From a virus (lineage: Duplodnaviria; Heunggongvirae; Uroviricota; Caudoviricetes), in the IMG/VR virus record IMGVR_UViG_2563366883_000011: a DNA stretch of 25,186 nt; one strand, written 5' to 3'. Positions 18,001 through 24,000 of the stretch are shown in pieces. The position numbers were made by a program. The first letter of the stretch is position 1. Every line of letters begins with the position of its first letter.

Positions 18001-21000
18001 AAACCAAAGGTAAGGTCTCGCTCAACCTGGAAATCGAACCGTTTGATGAGAACCGTGTGAAAATCAAACACAAACTCTCATATGTTCGCCCGACTAACCG
18101 CGGGAAAATTTCCGAAGAAGACACCACCGAAACGCCGATGTATGTCAATCGCGGTGGTCGCCTGACTATTCTGCAGGAAGACCAGGGACAATTACTGACT
18201 CTTGCCGGTGAACCTGACGGAAAACTCCGCGCAGCAGGTCATTAATATCGTTCTTAATTAACCGATTATTTATCTCATCACTGAATATCTTTATATAGTG
18301 AGGACTTATTATGTCTCAGAACTTAGACGCAACCGCAATTAATCAAATCCATTCCCTTATTTCTGCTCAGGGTGTTAATGAAATTATCAGTAAGATTGGT
18401 GCCGATGCTGTGGCATTGCCTGAGAATTTCCGCATTCATGATCTGGAAAAATTTAATTTAAATCGCTTCCGTTTCCGTGGTGCGCTTTCCACTGCCAGCA
18501 TCGATGACTTTACCCGTTATTCTAAAGATCTTGCAGATGAAGGCACCCGCTGCTTTATCGATGCCGATAATATGCGAGCAGTCAGTGTGCTTAACCTGGG
18601 TACTATTGATGAACCAGGTCACGCAGATAACACCGCCACTCTCAAACTGAAAAAGACAGCACCGTTCTCTGCCCTGTTGTCTGTTAACGGCGAGCGTAAC
18701 TCCCAGAAGTCACTGGCAGAATGGATTGAAGACTGGTCCGACTACCTTGTGGGCTTTGATGCTAATGGTGACGCTATTCAGGCAACAAAAGCGGCTGCGG
18801 CGGTCCGTAAAATCACGATTGAAGCAAACCAGACCGCTGATTTTGAAGATAATGACTTCAGCGGCAAACGCTCCCTGATGGAGTCTGTCGAAGCGAAGAC
18901 CAAAGATATTATGCCAGTGGCATTTGAATTTAAATGCGTTCCGTTTGAAGGTCTGAAAGAACGTCCATTTAAATTACGCCTCAGCATTATCACTGGCGAT
19001 CGTCCTGTACTGGTTCTGCGCATTATTCAGCTGGAAGCAGTGCAGGAAGAAATGGCTAACGAATTTCGTGATCTGCTTGTTGAGAAATTCAAAGACAGCA
19101 AAGTAGAAACCTTTATTGGTACTTTCACCGCCTGATTTCATTACTGCAAATGCTCCTGCGGGGGCATTTATGGAAACGTAATTAACTCAATAATCGCCGG
19201 ATGGTGCGGGATTCCTTTTACCCGAATTCAGCGCGGTGCAGCGCATATAAAGTGGAGAACGAAATGTCATTTATTAAAACTTTTTCCGGGAAGCATTTTT
19301 ATTATGACAAGATAAATAAAGACGACATCGTGATTAACGATATCGCGGTTTCCCTTTCAAATATCTGTCGCTTTGCAGGACATCTTTCACACTTCTACAG
19401 TGTCGCCCAGCATGCGGTGCTTTGCAGCCAGCTGGTGCCGCAGGAATTTGCTTTTGAAGCGTTAATGCATGATGCAACAGAAGCGTATTGCCAGGACATC
19501 CCCGCACCACTGAAACGACTTCTTCCTGACTATAAACGGATGGAAGAAAAAATAGACGCCGTAATCCGTGAGAAATACGGGTTACCTCCTGTTATGAGCA
19601 CGCCAGTGAAATATGCCGATCTCATCATGCTGGCAACCGAACGCCGCGATCTCGGACTTGATGATGGCTCTTTCTGGCCTGTATTGGAAGGTATCCCGGC
19701 AACAGAGATGTTCAAAGTGATTCCACTGGCACCGGGCCATGCCTACGGGATGTTTATGGAACGCTTCAACGAGTTATCGGAATTACGCAAATGTGCATAA
19801 CTCATGTAGTTAGTTTTTCTGGCGGGAGAACATCTGCATATCTTGTTCACCTGATGGAAGAACAAAGAAAGGCTGGCAATAACGTCTGCTACATCTTTAT
19901 GGATACCGGTTGCGAACATCCGCTGACATACCGCTTTATTCGGGAGGTTGTGAAGTTCTGGGGCATACCGCTAACTGTGTTGCAGGTCGATATAAATCCA
20001 GAGCTTGGGCAGCCAAATGGTTATACGGAATGGGAACCAAAGGATATTCAGACGCGAATGCCGGTGCTTAAACCGTTTATGGACATGGTTAAAAAGTACG
20101 GTACGCCATACATCGGCGGCGCATTCTGTACTGACAGGCTAAAACTCACCCCTTTCACGAAATATTGCGATGACCATTTTGGGCGAGGGAATTACATCAC
20201 ATGGCTGGGTATTCGTGCGGACGAACACCGTAGGCTGAAACCGAAACCGGGCGTCCGGTATCTTGCCGAGCTGTCAGATTTTGATAAGTCGGATGTTATC
20301 CGGTGGTGGCGTAAACAACCTTTTGATTTGCAAATCCCGGAGCACCTCGGGAACTGTGTTTTCTGCATCAAAAAGTCAACGCAAAAGCTGGGGATCGCAT
20401 GTAAAGACGAACCTGGTCTGATGCGGGTTTTTAATGAACTGGTTACAGGCAAACACGTCCGGGATGGTCATCGCAGAACAGGTAAAGACGTTATGTACCG
20501 TGGTCACCTGACGCTTGACAGGATTGCCAGAATGTATGCCGACAGCGACTACAGAAGTTTGTATCAGGCGATGGTGCTGGCCAAGCGGTTTGATACTGGT
20601 TCGTGTTCCGAATCATGTGAAATCTGGGGTGACCAATTGGAGTTGAAATTCGAAGAGGTAGTGGCATGACAATCGTAAAAACCCATACCGGTACCGTGAT
20701 CACCAAAGATGGACCGCAGGTAAAAAAATTGCACCAAACAGAACGGATGTGGGTCGTCGGCAAAAACGAGTTTTACCACAAAGAAACTGGACGCCGCCAC
20801 TTTGCAGAAAATACGCGCCGCCGACTGCTGTTAGACACCATCAAGCCTATCGAGGTGAAGCATGTTTAAACAGAACGAAAAAGCTATCGCTCAAATTGCT
20901 GATTATATCCCGCGTGCGTGCCGGGGTATGCAGTTGCAGGAAGCCAAAGCGCGCCTGGAGAAAAAAATTGCGCTCTATATCGATGACGGCTGTGATGCTG

Positions 21001-24000
21001 CCGTTCTTAACGCAGCGTTCGCGCCAGCTCTTAACAGTCATACGCGGGAGTCTTTTTTTTCGTGCATCGCAGCGCAGATCCGCAAAGGAGGCAACCAGTG
21101 AGCAAGATTGACTATCAGGCACTGCGTAAAGCGGCGCAACTGGCAACACAGGGTGAATGGGTCGCATTTATTTCGTCTGGTACTGGTACATATGCGGTGC
21201 ATACACCTGGTGATAAACGATGTGAAGACGTTATCAAATGGACCGGCTTTGATGGACAGCACAACGCAGAGAACAACGCTCGTTATATCGCAGCTTTCAA
21301 CCCTGAAGTAGTGCAGGCGCTGCTGGATGAACGGGAAAGAAACCAGCAATACATCAAACGCCGTGACCAGGAGAACGAGGATATTGCGCTTACGGTTGGG
21401 AAGCTGCGCGTTGAGCTTGAAGCAGCAAAATCAAAACTCAACGAGCAGCGCGAGTATTACGAGGGAGTTATCTCTGATGGGTGCAAGCGTATTGCTGAAC
21501 TGGAAGCGCGGGAAGTTCAATTACCGACTCGCTACGACCTTCGATATGGACACCCGATAAATGCAGATGAGCGACAAGTCATGATACCTAAAGAAAATGG
21601 CAGTTGGCTTTACCTGATTGACCTAGAACACGCATTACGCGTCGCTGACATTCGCATCAAAGGAGAGTGATATGGCGTTAACACACCACGAACTCTGTCA
21701 GATTGCGTACAAGTTCCTTAAGCGCAACGGGTTCAAGGTTTGCTTTCATGACCGCTTTGTTGCTGTAACCAGTACCGGAGAACAGCCAGATGCTATGGGA
21801 TTCAGAAATTCAGCATCATGCCTGATAGAGGCGAAGTGTTCTCGTGCTGACTTGTTGGCAGATAGAAAAAAGCGTTTCCGTAAAAATCCCTCACTTGGCA
21901 TGGGCGACTGGCGATTCTTTATTAGTGAGCCGGAAATTATTTCAGTTGAGGATTTACCTCCCGGCTGGGGATTACTTCACGTTGTTAACGGAAGAGTACG
22001 GAAAGTACATGGATGGCCCAGGGGTAATTGCTGTTGGGGTAATCCTGACGATAAGCCATTTACCGGGAATAAGCAGGTTGAATGCGATTACATGTTATCT
22101 GCATTAAGGCGCATGGAGTTGAGAGGGCACCTTAATGAAATATATGACGGTGTGATTGTTAATAAGAAAGAAGGAAACGCGGCATGATCACTATTACCAA
22201 AGGGCGACTGCTGACAATCAAGCAGTGGCGCGAAACATACGGACCGGGTAGCAACGTTGTACTGCCAGCAGAAGAAGCGGAAGAACTGGCACGGATTGCA
22301 CTGGCATCATTGGAAGCAGATCCAGTTAAACGAGTTAACTCAGATCAGATGCACCGAGTCTGCTTAGAAGCTAATCGCTATTTAGATAAATATGACGCGA
22401 TGGCGAAAGAGGTAAATAAGTTGCTTGGACGCATCGCCCCGCCAGCGCCAGTATTTAACGGCGAATACGGTGACGCATATCAGGGCGCTCGTGAAGACCT
22501 GTCCATCTGGAAACGGCGAGCGCTTGAAGCTGATGAGCACGTTCGGCGACTGGAGCAAATCAATGACCACATGGTGAAAGAGGCGCAGGGAGAATCACGC
22601 ATGGGCGAGCCTGTAATACGTGAGCCAGCACCGGTAGTGCCTGAAGAAGCAACTCCGGAAAACGTAGAAATGCTCTCTGGCTATGTTTCAACGTACAAAT
22701 TAACCGATAGCGAGCGCGATATTGCTGCCGAAATATGGAACGCCTGCCGCGCCGCCATGCTTCAGTCCGGAAACTTTCGGGAAAACAAGAATTCGTCAAC
22801 CAATAATTTTCGGGAAATCGCGGAAACGTCAACCAACTATCCGGCAATTCCTAGTGAGGTGTTGTCCGCAATCCTGAAGGTTGCCAGGATTCGTGCCGAT
22901 TTCGATGATTTTGACGGTGACAGGCGAGGTATCGGTGATTGTCTGGATGAGGCTGAGCAAGAGCTTATCGTTACCATTAACAAATATGCCAGTCAGTTGG
23001 CAGCAGAACCTATAGCGCCTAATGACGTTCGAGAGCAGACAGCCATTCCACAAGTTCCGGTAACTCCGGATGGTTGGATAAGCTGTAGTGAGCGAATGCC
23101 GGACGACAGGCAGGAGGTGAATCAATGAGCTGGCCTGATGCAATCGTAACTCTGGGGGTGGTATTCGCAGCAGCGTTTGTTGTGTTCTCGATTTGTCGAT
23201 GGGGATAACCACATGTTCGCTTTGATTCAACGCGGTCAGATATACACGGACAGAGCTGGATACCCCGTGGTGATTACTCGCATCACTGAGCACTCAGTGT
23301 TCTTTCGACGGATGGACGGACGATCCGGGCGGGTACGCATTGGTGAGTTAAACTGCCTGTTCGAACATATTGACCACCAGGAGTACCGCAAAATTCTCGC
23401 GGACACTGAGCAGGAAAAGCACCTGAAAAAATTACGAGCCATAAAAAGGAAGTAAAGAATGAATAAAGCATTTGAACGATGGGTCCACCAGCGTTACGGC
23501 AATCGCTATGACCTGACGCGAGATGTTGACGGCTTCTACTGTCGTTAAGTTGTGAAGCGAATGTTTGAAGTGTGGTGCCACTGCCGTGGATGAAAGTTTT
23601 ATGAGGTTGGCATGCAGACAATCATCTATCAGATAACCCCCAGCAAATGGTGTACGGAGAGAGTCCTCATTGCATCAACAGGGCTAAAGCCTGGCACCAT
23701 TGAGCGGGCAAGAAGAAAGTCATGGATGCAGGGAAAAGAATACCGCCATTACGCTGTAGAAGGTGATCCGGGGCACTACAGTGAATGCCTGTACAACATC
23801 GAAGAAATTATGCGATGGATCGAAAACCAGAAACAACCAGGTGCCAAAAATGCAAGTTCCGGTTAACCTGTTAATGCTCCTGGACGTCTGGGAGGTTTAA
23901 TGAGTAACGCATCATACCCGACAGGCGTTGAAAACCATGGAGGATCACTCCGTATATGGTTTCACTATAATGGCAAACGTGTCAGAGAAAACCTCGGTGT

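What the first reader, a model, noticed from the sequence alone, without database searches (positions are those of the whole stretch)
19791..21101. PAPS-reductase-like PP-loop enzyme with Cys cluster, followed by two translationally coupled small ORFs
The SGGxxS PP-loop plus Cys-containing C-terminal half is the architecture of adenylating enzymes that act on nucleic acids or sulfur-transfer substrates (CysH and DndC-type enzymes). In an early phage operon this suggests DNA or tRNA modification or anti-defence chemistry. The two small ORFs chained by ATGA/GTGA overlaps may be partner subunits.
Basis: inference. Interest (0 to 1): 0.45.

Follow-up and report, generated by a model that had tools for sequence, protein, structure and literature searches.

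The report
Lambda NinC-type PAPS-reductase-like phage gene
This is the E. coli prophage version of phage lambda's long-unexplained ninC gene, a sulfur-enzyme look-alike that most likely helps the phage evade DNA-based host defences rather than feeding sulfur metabolism, and the two small genes behind it are an unrelated movable cassette, not its subunits.

Summary
ORF 19791-20669 (292 aa) is a PAPS-reductase-family protein with an SGGRTS loop and five conserved cysteines. Two small ORFs (67 and 79 aa) follow it through ATGA-type overlaps.

It is an orthologue of phage lambda NinC (78% identity) and a member of phrog_424. Here it lies in the early-left operon of a lambdoid E. coli prophage. The DNA is 100% identical in STEC chromosomes.

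The family is repeatedly fused to DNA adenine methyltransferases. The closest experimentally examined relative (55% identity) is the PAPS+Dam fusion of Vibrio phage 44E38.1, which was implicated in escape from the Dnd phosphorothioate defence.

This phage also carries a separate Dam gene (11771-12457, minus strand). That gene is 72% identical to the methylase domain of one such fusion.

The two small ORFs are not partner subunits. They are present in 34 and absent from 45 of 79 loci with a near-identical NinC, absent from 64 diverse loci, and found without NinC elsewhere.

Verdict: a new member of a known family of unknown biochemistry. A DNA-directed counter-defence role is the best-supported reading. 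Interest is moderate to low.

The parts
19791..20669 (+). NinC-type PAPS-reductase-family protein, 292 aa. It has a variant PP-loop (SGGRTS, residues 10-15), a DTGxEHPxTY motif, C113-x4-K118, a GIRADE-x2-R motif (140-148), G187-N-C189-x2-C192-x2-K195, and a disordered C-terminal tail carrying C272-SES-C276.
   Evidence: phrog_424, E 7.6e-93; lambda NinC, 78% identity; invariant residues; AF2 pLDDT 90.9, tail below 50; fold searches; 55% identity to 44E38.1 p0018
20666..20869 (+). 67-aa ORF of unknown function (phrog_1226). It is the first gene of a mobile two-gene cassette and is not specific to NinC.
   Evidence: (125 homologues, listed names all Enterobacteriaceae, no Pfam domain of its own)
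20862..21101 (+). 79-aa ORF of unknown function (phrog_1344). It is the second gene of the same cassette and, in the loci tested, is always present or absent together with the 67-aa ORF.
19264..19800 (+). HD-domain 5'-deoxynucleotidase of the YfdR type. The mechanical ORF starts at 19201; the likely start is the ATG at 19264 (MSFIKTF...). It overlaps the NinC start by 10 nt. It is a separable neighbour, not a fixed partner.
   Evidence: phrog_318, E 1.8e-111; absent from loci such as L001, L011 and L045 that keep NinC; RefSeq calls it yfdR
21098..21670 (+). Ead/Ea22-like protein with a GTG start overlapping the 79-aa ORF's stop. In phages that lack the small-ORF cassette, an Ead-like gene is coupled directly to NinC by the same ATGA overlap.
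   Evidence: (PF13935, E 8e-41)
11771..12457 (-). Phage Dam-type DNA N6-adenine methyltransferase in the nin region. It is homologous to the methylase domain that is fused to NinC-like domains in other phages.
   Evidence: second half of fusion family phrog_33262, E 1.9e-96; 72% identity to P0118 residues 298-506; PF05869, E 6.3e-45

Best explanation
ORF 19791-20669 is the orthologue of phage lambda NinC. It is a stand-alone member of a large phage-borne branch of the PAPS-reductase / PP-loop family.

Proposed mechanism (inferred, not shown):
- It is a counter-defence enzyme that acts on phage DNA or on the DNA-modification machinery. It is not an assimilatory sulfate-reduction enzyme.
- The N-terminal nucleotide-binding core (SGGRTS loop, DTGxEHP, K118, GIRADE-R) binds ATP or an adenylyl nucleotide.
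- C113, C189 and C192 sit where the equivalent motifs of Fe-S APS reductases occur in the sequence (my recollection of those enzymes; not aligned here), and may hold an Fe-S cluster.
- The flexible C-terminal CSESC tail would carry a sulfur species, for example a persulfide from host IscS, into the active site.
- The product would be a phosphorothioate-like or other sulfur mark on phage DNA, or an interference with that chemistry. Either would let the phage escape phosphorothioate-sensing restriction (Dnd, and possibly Ssp-type systems).
- It would work in the same process as a Dam-type methyltransferase. In this phage that methylase is encoded separately at 11771-12457; in many other phages it is fused to the NinC domain.

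The 67-aa and 79-aa ORFs are an unrelated mosaic two-gene cassette that is merely inserted between NinC and the Ead-like gene.
For: Shown here:
- 78% identity to lambda NinC; phrog_424 at E 7.6e-93.
- Five conserved cysteines plus conserved nucleotide-site residues across 49 homologues.
- A confident model with a disordered Cys-bearing tail.
- The best match among defence-system profiles is SspD, the PAPS-reductase-like enzyme of Ssp phosphorothioation, at E 1.8e-15. DndC and BrxP are weaker.
- The family is fused to two Pfam-recognised families of N6-adenine DNA methyltransferase: PF05869 (both N- and C-terminal) and PF02086. A further C-terminal extension carries an SNPPF motif that Pfam does not recognise.
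- 9 of 69 diverse viral loci carry a fusion, and others have stand-alone Dam or Dcm-type genes nearby.
- This window's own Dam gene is 72% identical to the methylase half of fusion P0118. That fusion sits next to excisionase-like (HTH_17) and integrase genes.

From the literature:
- Vibrio phage 44E38.1 p0018 is a 479-aa PAPS+Dam protein. It matches hit P0117 by name and length; its PAPS-reductase domain is 55% identical to this ORF over residues 3-282.
- Transferring p0018 together with p0019 let another phage infect a Dnd-carrying host (bioRxiv 10.1101/2021.05.05.442762).
- An 'adnd_p0020' anti-Dnd gene is counted among viral anti-defence genes in a virome survey. I did not test its link to this family.

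Small ORFs not being partners.
Against: - No biochemical activity has been shown for any NinC-type protein.
- The loop is SGGRTS, not SGGxDS, so ATP pyrophosphatase activity is uncertain.
- Only the N-terminal half or so shows sequence similarity to characterised families: residues 5-148 to SspD and 4-144 to CysH.
- No cysteine desulfurase or DndD/E- or SspB/C-like partner is linked in about 100 loci. A Dnd-like pathway would therefore need host factors or a different mechanism.
- In the Vibrio experiment two genes were moved together and the PAPS domain was fused to Dam, so the effect is not cleanly attributed to the PAPS domain.
- Most loci (about 75%) have no methyltransferase within 4 kb.
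- From my own knowledge, not tested here: lambda DNA, made by a ninC+ phage, is widely used as an unmodified substrate and no phosphorothioate has been reported in it.
- lambda ninC is dispensable on laboratory hosts (PMC10695390). This fits an accessory role but gives no positive support.
Confidence: 0.5

Rival explanations
1. Auxiliary metabolic gene. The protein is a working CysH-like PAPS/APS reductase that boosts host assimilatory sulfate reduction (sulfite, then cysteine, methionine and SAM) during infection.
For: - Annotated as PAPS reductase everywhere, with a Pfam PF01507 hit.
- APS and PAPS reductases are the top sequence and fold matches: 2goy and 6vpu; hhalign probability 91% to E. 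coli CysH over residues 4-144.
- The motif order (nucleotide loop, DTGxxxPxTY, C..K, GxRxxE..R, CxxC, C-terminal Cys tail) resembles Fe-S APS reductases. This rests on my knowledge of that family.
- Virome papers treat it as a cysH AMG.
Against: - CysH models are missed by far: PRK02090 scores 20.3 against 154, and TIGR00434 scores 13.1 against 165.
- The C-terminal ECGLH motif is replaced by CSESCE.
- Similarity is confined to the N-terminal half.
- The gene sits among DNA replication, recombination and anti-restriction genes and is never beside cys genes.
- Repeated fusion to DNA methyltransferases is hard to explain metabolically.
- The Vibrio homologue's gene pair changed host range on a Dnd-carrying host.
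Confidence: 0.08
2. RNA-directed PP-loop enzyme. It is a tRNA (or other RNA) thiolase or modifying enzyme of the TtcA/TtuA/NcsA/TilS type, which adjusts or repairs host tRNA, for example against anticodon nucleases.
Against: - Only weak, sub-threshold sequence matches to tRNA-modification families: TilS at E 0.016-0.035, far below cut-off.
- No RNA-binding domain (THUMP, PUA or a TilS C-terminal domain) was detected by Pfam.
- The fusion partners recognised are DNA adenine methyltransferases, not RNA enzymes.
- The only phenotype in the family concerns a DNA-modification-based defence.
Confidence: 0.1
3. Non-sulfur DNA chemistry, or a non-catalytic antagonist. Either the PP-loop core activates a DNA or nucleotide carbonyl or phosphate for substitution by another nucleophile (a different DNA hypermodification), or the protein acts as a DndC/SspD mimic that titrates host modification or restriction components without modifying DNA.
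For: DNA linkage comes from the methyltransferase fusions. There are no linked sulfur-mobilising genes. Partial similarity to SspD and DndC could support mimicry. The variant loop lacking the canonical Asp may indicate altered or lost ATP chemistry.
Against: Near-perfect conservation of about 20 putative active-site residues and five cysteines down to about 30% identity argues for catalysis rather than a decoy. Cysteine-rich sets in this superfamily usually serve Fe-S or sulfur relay, which is established for APS reductase, TtuA, NcsA and LarE (targets).
Confidence: 0.2
4. One reading: NinC and the two small ORFs form a multi-subunit modification enzyme.
For: Tight ATGA and 8-nt overlaps. The three genes occur together in 34 close loci and in at least 222 complete E. 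coli genomes.
Against: - 45 of 79 loci with a NinC at least 93% identical lack both small ORFs, and there NinC is ATGA-coupled directly to an Ead-like gene.
- 0 of 64 diverse NinC loci have them.
- The pair occurs without NinC in mEp460. The 67-aa ORF, followed by an 84-85-aa ORF with the same overlap whose homology to the 79-aa ORF was not tested, occurs without NinC in Klebsiella prophages behind DUF977 and replication genes.
- The pair persists beside an 18% NinC remnant in Stx2a phages.
- The 67-aa family has 125 homologues, against 5028 for NinC.
Confidence: 0.03

Closest known systems
Phage lambda NinC (nin-region gene, UniProt 'Protein ninC'; phrog_424)
   Same: 78% amino-acid identity over residues 2-292. 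Same length class and same PHROG family (E 7.6e-93). No characterised function. Non-essential in lambda.
   Different: Here the gene lies in the early-left operon between an HD phosphatase and the ea-type genes. In lambda it lies in the rightward nin region between the replication genes and Q.
Vibrio phage 44E38.1 p0018, a PAPS-reductase + Dam fusion ('anti-Dnd', Piel et al., bioRxiv 10.1101/2021.05.05.442762)
   Same: The N-terminal domain is 55% identical over residues 3-282, with every conserved motif including GNCVFCIKK and GSCSESCE. Both are phage accessory genes. The window phage also has a PF05869 Dam.
   Different: The Vibrio protein is a single 479-aa fusion. Here the methylase is a separate gene in another operon, and it is only 28% identical to that particular Dam domain, though 72% identical to the one in fusion P0118. 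The anti-Dnd phenotype has not been tested for this gene.
SspD and DndC (PAPS-reductase-like ATP pyrophosphatases of DNA phosphorothioation)
   Same: SspD is the best characterised-family profile hit (E 1.8e-15, residues 5-148). DndC scores E 7.7e-4. The PP-loop core is shared. A cysteine-rich / Fe-S feature is also reported for DndC (my recollection; not checked here).
   Different: The match covers only the N-terminal half. DndC TIGR03183 scores 14.3 bits against a cut-off of 290. The loop is SGGRTS. No sspABC or dndABDE neighbours. The C-terminal half (GNCxxCxKK and CSESCE) is specific to this family.
Assimilatory APS/PAPS reductase (CysH; PDB 2goy, 6vpu, 1sur)
   Same: Top PDB matches by sequence and fold. 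Shared DTGxxxPETYxFI motif, K118 equivalent and GxRxxE motif. A C-terminal flexible Cys-bearing tail.
   Different: TM-scores are only 0.4-0.5. CysH family cut-offs are not met. The tail motif differs. An intact glycine-rich SGG loop is present. The phage DNA-metabolism context and the methyltransferase fusions differ from CysH.

Membership tests
PAPS_reduct / PP-loop (adenine nucleotide alpha-hydrolase) superfamily | Pfam PF01507 score above the gathering threshold | tested here: met
   36.9 bits against 22.5, but only residues 5-72 align
PAPS_reduct / PP-loop (adenine nucleotide alpha-hydrolase) superfamily | Rossmann-like alpha/beta core with a phosphate-binding loop after the first strand | tested here: met
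PAPS_reduct / PP-loop (adenine nucleotide alpha-hydrolase) superfamily | Canonical SGGxDS PP-loop motif of the ATP-pyrophosphatase members | tested here: inconclusive
   The sequence is SGGRTS. S10, G12 and S15 are invariant, and T14 is at least 90% conserved in place of Asp.
Lambda NinC family (phrog_424) | Full-length similarity to lambda NinC and the PHROG profile | tested here: met
   78% identity over residues 2-292; phrog_424 E 7.6e-93 over residues 5-291
CysH (assimilatory PAPS/APS reductase) | Score above the NCBIfam equivalog/subfamily cut-offs | tested here: not met
   PRK02090 scores 20.3 against 154; TIGR00434 scores 13.1 against 165.1
CysH (assimilatory PAPS/APS reductase) | C-terminal catalytic ECGLH motif | tested here: not met
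   The tail motif is (G)xC-SES-C-E.
CysH (assimilatory PAPS/APS reductase) | Thioredoxin-dependent reduction of PAPS/APS to sulfite | not testable with these tools
   Needs an enzyme assay or cysH complementation
DndC (DNA phosphorothioation sulfurtransferase) | TIGR03183 equivalog cut-off | tested here: not met
   14.3 bits against 290.4; PADLOC DndC E 7.7e-4
DndC (DNA phosphorothioation sulfurtransferase) | Operon with dndB/D/E (and dndA) or an equivalent | tested here: not met
   Among the recurrent neighbour clusters of about 100 diverse loci that I identified, none was such a partner. The neighbours identified by motif or Pfam are replication, nin, repressor and methylase genes.
SspD (Ssp phosphorothioation) | Full-length match to the SspD profile and linkage to sspABC | tested here: not met
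   E 1.8e-15, but only profile positions 2-121 of 277. No ssp-like neighbours.
QueC (7-cyano-7-deazaguanine synthase) | Sequence-profile match, and a fold match closer than to other PP-loop enzymes | tested here: not met
Phage PAPS-domain anti-Dnd genes (44E38.1 p0018 type) | Homologous PAPS-reductase domain with all conserved motifs | tested here: met
   55% identity, E 3e-107
Phage PAPS-domain anti-Dnd genes (44E38.1 p0018 type) | Fusion to a Dam-type methyltransferase domain | tested here: not met
   The protein is a 292-aa single domain. Dam is encoded separately at 11771-12457 on the minus strand.
Phage PAPS-domain anti-Dnd genes (44E38.1 p0018 type) | Confers escape from Dnd restriction | not testable with these tools
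   Needs plating of isogenic phages on Dnd+ and Dnd- hosts

The most novel reading that the evidence does not exclude
NinC-type proteins are self-sufficient, single-polypeptide DNA sulfur (phosphorothioate or thio-base) writers. They would use only host sulfur donors and no DndD/E- or SspB/C-like partners. Lambda, Stx phages and hundreds of other phages would then carry a low-level covalent DNA mark that has gone unnoticed, giving a function to a lambda gene unexplained since it was first described in the early 1980s.
Probability: 0.15. Interest if true: 0.75.

Novelty: new member of a known kind. Interest (0 to 1): 0.33.

Why it matters
NinC is among the lambda genes that still lack an assigned function, and its family is very large. 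This search found 5028 homologues, and 895 of 5426 complete E. coli genomes match this segment.

Virome studies routinely count such genes as 'cysH' sulfur-metabolism genes and draw ecological conclusions from them. The family fails the CysH criteria, is fused to DNA methyltransferases, and has a relative implicated in escape from the Dnd defence. If it is really a counter-defence enzyme, those metabolic interpretations are wrong.

A simple, testable model then follows: ninC deletions of lambda or Stx phages plated on Dnd- or Ssp-carrying E. coli. For this window specifically the finding is ordinary. It is a common prophage module, and the small ORFs are bystanders.

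Tried and rejected
- Partner-subunit hypothesis: rejected by co-occurrence counts and by finding the cassette without NinC.
- Search for conserved partners (desulfurase, DndD/E, SspB/C): I clustered neighbour ORFs from 69 and then 116 diverse loci. Only lambdoid replication, nin, repressor and methylase genes were identified.
- PDB entry 21fy chain C, 'PptA': a profile hit at E 3e-6 that includes the NNCVGCVKG motif. Three literature searches did not identify it. It remains a lead.
- Fold search against afdb50: the library was unavailable. The viral library added only unnamed or 'PAPS reductase' phage proteins.
- Cys-Cys distances in the model, to test Fe-S geometry: model coordinates are not exposed to scripts, so this was not done.
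- Published version of Piel et al. (Nat Microbiol 2022): not held, so only the preprint is cited.
- Literature searches for NinC or PAPS-reductase biochemistry in phages found no enzymology.
- Promoter/terminator scan of the operon: uninformative. It found a hairpin after the repressor gene at 17181-17198 and no clear pL.
- tRNA scan: none in the window.
- The single-sequence locus search in viral contigs returned only relatives at least 93% identical. The alignment-based search was needed for diversity.

Full report
**1. The observation**

The three ORFs are at the stated coordinates:
- 19791-20669, 292 aa
- 20666-20869, 67 aa
- 20862-21101, 79 aa

The sequence shows these junctions:
- The first ATG overlaps the stop of the upstream HD-domain gene by 10 nt.
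- An ATGA overlap lies at 20666-20669.
- An 8-nt overlap lies at 20862-20869.
- A GTGA overlap at 21098-21101 leads into an Ead/Ea22-like gene (PF13935).

The 292-aa protein hits Pfam PAPS_reduct above threshold, but only over residues 5-72. It contains S10-G-G-R-T-S15. Its cysteines are at 2, 33, 41, 113, 126, 189, 192, 204, 272 and 276. The two small ORFs belong to PHROG families of unknown function, at E 1.9e-42 and 4.5e-53, so they are real genes.

**2. Where the window comes from**

The window is a lambdoid prophage. On the minus strand it has:
- a lysozyme, RusA, a LexA-like DNA-binding protein and a PF05869 Dam methylase
- a replication protein and a CII-like regulator

On the plus strand it has a CI-like repressor, then DUF2303, an HD 5'-deoxynucleotidase, the PAPS-reductase-like gene, the two small ORFs, Ead-like and DUF551-like genes, an excisionase and an integrase. 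The finding therefore lies in the early-left operon.

The 1311-bp segment is 100% identical in STEC chromosomes. It matches 895 of 5426 complete E. coli genomes, 222 of them over at least 80% of its length. It is about 93% identical in Stx2a phages, where the gene is annotated 'NinC' or 'PAPS reductase'.

**3. Identity of the 292-aa protein**

It is 78% identical to lambda NinC over residues 2-292 (hit in Lambda imm434 at 39902-40774). It matches phrog_424 at E 7.6e-93.

The family is large. There were 5028 hits in the 90%-clustered collection and 1626 representatives at E up to 0.001 in the 50%-clustered library.

In a 49-sequence alignment reaching 29% identity (A1), these residues are invariant: S10, G12, S15, G40, E42, T46, F49, C113, K118, G140, R142, D144, E145, R148, L180, G187, N188, C189, K195, C272 and C276. 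C192 is at least 90% conserved.

AlphaFold2 gives a confident model (pLDDT 90.9). The C-terminal tail carrying C272 and C276 is disordered.

**4. Membership tests**

- NCBIfam models for CysH, DndC and TilS are missed by an order of magnitude in bit score.
- PADLOC's best hit is SspD at E 1.8e-15, but only for residues 5-148. DndC and BrxP are marginal.
- By sequence against the PDB, only the first 70 or so residues align to APS/PAPS reductases.
It aligns K118 and the GIRAD motif.
- Foldseek puts APS and PAPS reductases first, with TM-scores of only 0.4-0.5.

The protein is therefore a member of the PAPS-reductase / PP-loop superfamily and of the NinC family. It is not a member of CysH, DndC, SspD or QueC.

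The loop is a variant (Thr in place of the canonical Asp), so ATP pyrophosphatase chemistry is plausible but unproven.

**5. Clues to function**

(a) Fusions. NinC-like domains are fused to PF05869 Dam domains at either end (P0124, P0125, P0126, P0128, P0157, P0082, P0117-P0119) and to a PF02086 D12 methylase (P0132). One further protein, P0137, has a C-terminal extension with an SNPPF motif that Pfam does not recognise. In 69 diverse viral loci, 9 carry fusions and 3 have a stand-alone Dam nearby. A larger set of loci also has adjacent stand-alone Dam genes (11 loci) and genes that look like Dcm-type methylases from a motif (6 loci).

(b) This window encodes the other half. The 227-aa product of 11771-12457 (minus strand) is PF05869 Dam. 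It matches the second half of the fusion family phrog_33262, whose first half matches the NinC gene. It is 72% identical to the methylase domain of fusion P0118. That fusion sits just upstream of excisionase-like (HTH_17) and integrase genes.

(c) Neighbours. There is no conserved partner of the Dnd or Ssp kind. The usual context is the nin region, with O/P-like replication genes, NinB, NinG, RusA and Q.

(d) Experiment in the literature. Vibrio phage 44E38.1 p0018 is a 479-aa PAPS+Dam protein. It corresponds by name and length to hit P0117, whose PAPS domain is 55% identical to the window protein across residues 3-282. Moved together with the adjacent p0019 into a related phage, it allowed infection of a host carrying the Dnd defence. 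The authors call the pair an anti-Dnd system (bioRxiv 10.1101/2021.05.05.442762). A later virome survey counts an 'adnd_p0020' anti-Dnd gene among viral anti-defence genes. I could not test the link to this family.

(e) Dispensability. lambda ninC is dispensable on laboratory hosts (PMC10695390), as expected for an accessory counter-defence gene.

**6. The small ORFs**

- Among 79 viral-contig loci with NinC at least 93% identical and enough downstream sequence, both small ORFs are present in 34, absent in 45, and never found singly.
- Where they are absent, NinC is ATGA-coupled directly to an Ead-like gene.
- None of 64 diverse NinC loci has them.
- The pair occurs without NinC in phage mEp460, behind a different 120-aa gene.
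- In Klebsiella phage 5 LV-2017 the 67-aa ORF lies behind a ParB-like gene.
- In Klebsiella prophages a 67-aa homologue lies behind DUF977 and replication genes. It is followed by an 84-85-aa ORF with the same 8-nt overlap, whose homology to the 79-aa ORF I did not test.
- In Stx2a phages the pair persists where only residues 239-292 of NinC remain.
- The 67-aa family has 125 homologues; the listed names are all Enterobacteriaceae, and the proteins have no Pfam domain of their own.

They are an independent mosaic cassette of unknown function. The overlaps reflect the tightly packed, overlap-coupled organisation seen at every junction read in this stretch of the operon.

**7. Mechanism**

Shown:
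- family identity
- conserved residues
- fold class
- methylase fusions
- absence of linked partners

Inferred:
- The protein binds an adenylyl nucleotide at the SGGRTS / DTGxEHP / K118 / GIRADE site.
- C113, C189 and C192 may ligate an Fe-S cluster. They sit where I recall the CC...CxxC ligands of Fe-S APS reductases lie, and a CxxC also aligns in PDB 21fy 'PptA'.
- The mobile CSESC tail shuttles sulfur.
- The target is phage DNA, or the phosphorothioate modification and restriction machinery.

I put this at about 0.5. The rivals are:
- other DNA chemistry or a decoy: 0.2
- RNA modification: 0.1
- true CysH-like metabolism: 0.08
- a three-subunit enzyme with the small ORFs: 0.03

The main caveats are:
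- There is no enzymology for any family member.
- The Vibrio experiment moved two genes together.
- About three quarters of loci have no nearby methylase.
- From my own knowledge, no phosphorothioate has been reported in lambda DNA.

**8. Novelty and score**

The gene is a new member of a known, widespread family (lambda NinC) whose biochemistry is unknown. A counter-defence role has already been proposed for a fused relative. However, the specific family assignments and the subunit idea do not hold, and the module is common in E. coli prophages. Interest is 0.33.

The value lies in a cheap genetic test in lambda. It also lies in the warning that 'phage cysH' counts in virome studies probably misread this family.

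Noticed in passing
window 11771-12457 (minus strand): A PF05869 Dam-type DNA adenine methyltransferase in the nin region. It is 72% identical to the methylase domain fused to a NinC-like domain in P0118. The two halves of fusion family phrog_33262 are split between the two early operons of this phage.
   Followed up: yes
L161-L171 (genome-contig hits): NinC hits at 78% identity appear in assemblies labelled Pseudomonas, Kitasatospora, Oceanobacillus, Bradyrhizobium, Shewanella and others. Several lie on low-coverage contigs of about 48.4 kb. This looks like phage lambda control DNA contaminating those assemblies.
   Followed up: no
alignment A2 (P0121, P0139, P0141, P0148, P0154, P0167, P0174, P0186, P0198, P0258): Many NinC homologues of about 340-420 aa (several phage-database hits of this two-piece type are from Vibrio phages) carry a 55-70-residue insertion right after the conserved IRxDEPxR motif. 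Its nature is unknown.
   Followed up: partly
PDB 21fy chain C ('PptA', 270 aa): A solved structure related to the NinC profile (E 3e-6), including the NNCVGCVKG counterpart of GNCVFCIKK. Its loop is degenerate (FSCGAPS). I could not find what PptA is in the held literature.
   Followed up: partly
P0021 (294 aa, seen on 20 contigs): A chimera of NinC residues 1 to about 231 joined to a DUF551-type C-terminus like that of window ORF 22184-23128. It is a deletion variant that lacks the conserved CSESC tail.
   Followed up: no
window 18311-19135 and 19201-19800: DUF2303 (YfdQ-like) and an HD 5'-deoxynucleotidase (YfdR-like) precede NinC. The mEp460 record likens its DUF2303 gene to an E. coli K-12 CPS-53 prophage protein, and RefSeq names the HD gene yfdR. 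The HD gene is replaced in some relatives that keep NinC (for example L001, L011, L045).
   Followed up: partly
literature (bioRxiv 10.64898/2025.12.10.692286; PMC13369170): Virome surveys list 'cysH PAPS reductase' as the most abundant viral metabolic gene. One of them separately counts 'adnd_p0020' anti-Dnd genes. These may be overlapping counts of the same NinC-like family.
   Followed up: no
E. coli genomes: 181 of the 989 matching places for the 19791-21101 segment lie on plasmids rather than chromosomes, which suggests phage-plasmids carry the module.
   Followed up: no
window 17181-17198 and 17216-18245: A terminator-like GC hairpin lies directly after the CI-like repressor gene. About 1.1 kb follows, with only unannotatable ORFs (92 and 182 aa, TTG starts, no Pfam hits), before DUF2303. 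An antiterminator or pL region may be here but was not identified.
   Followed up: no
window 4704-6683 (minus strand): A 659-aa ORF matches phrog_143 (unknown function) at E 4e-302, in the late region near the lysis genes.
   Followed up: no
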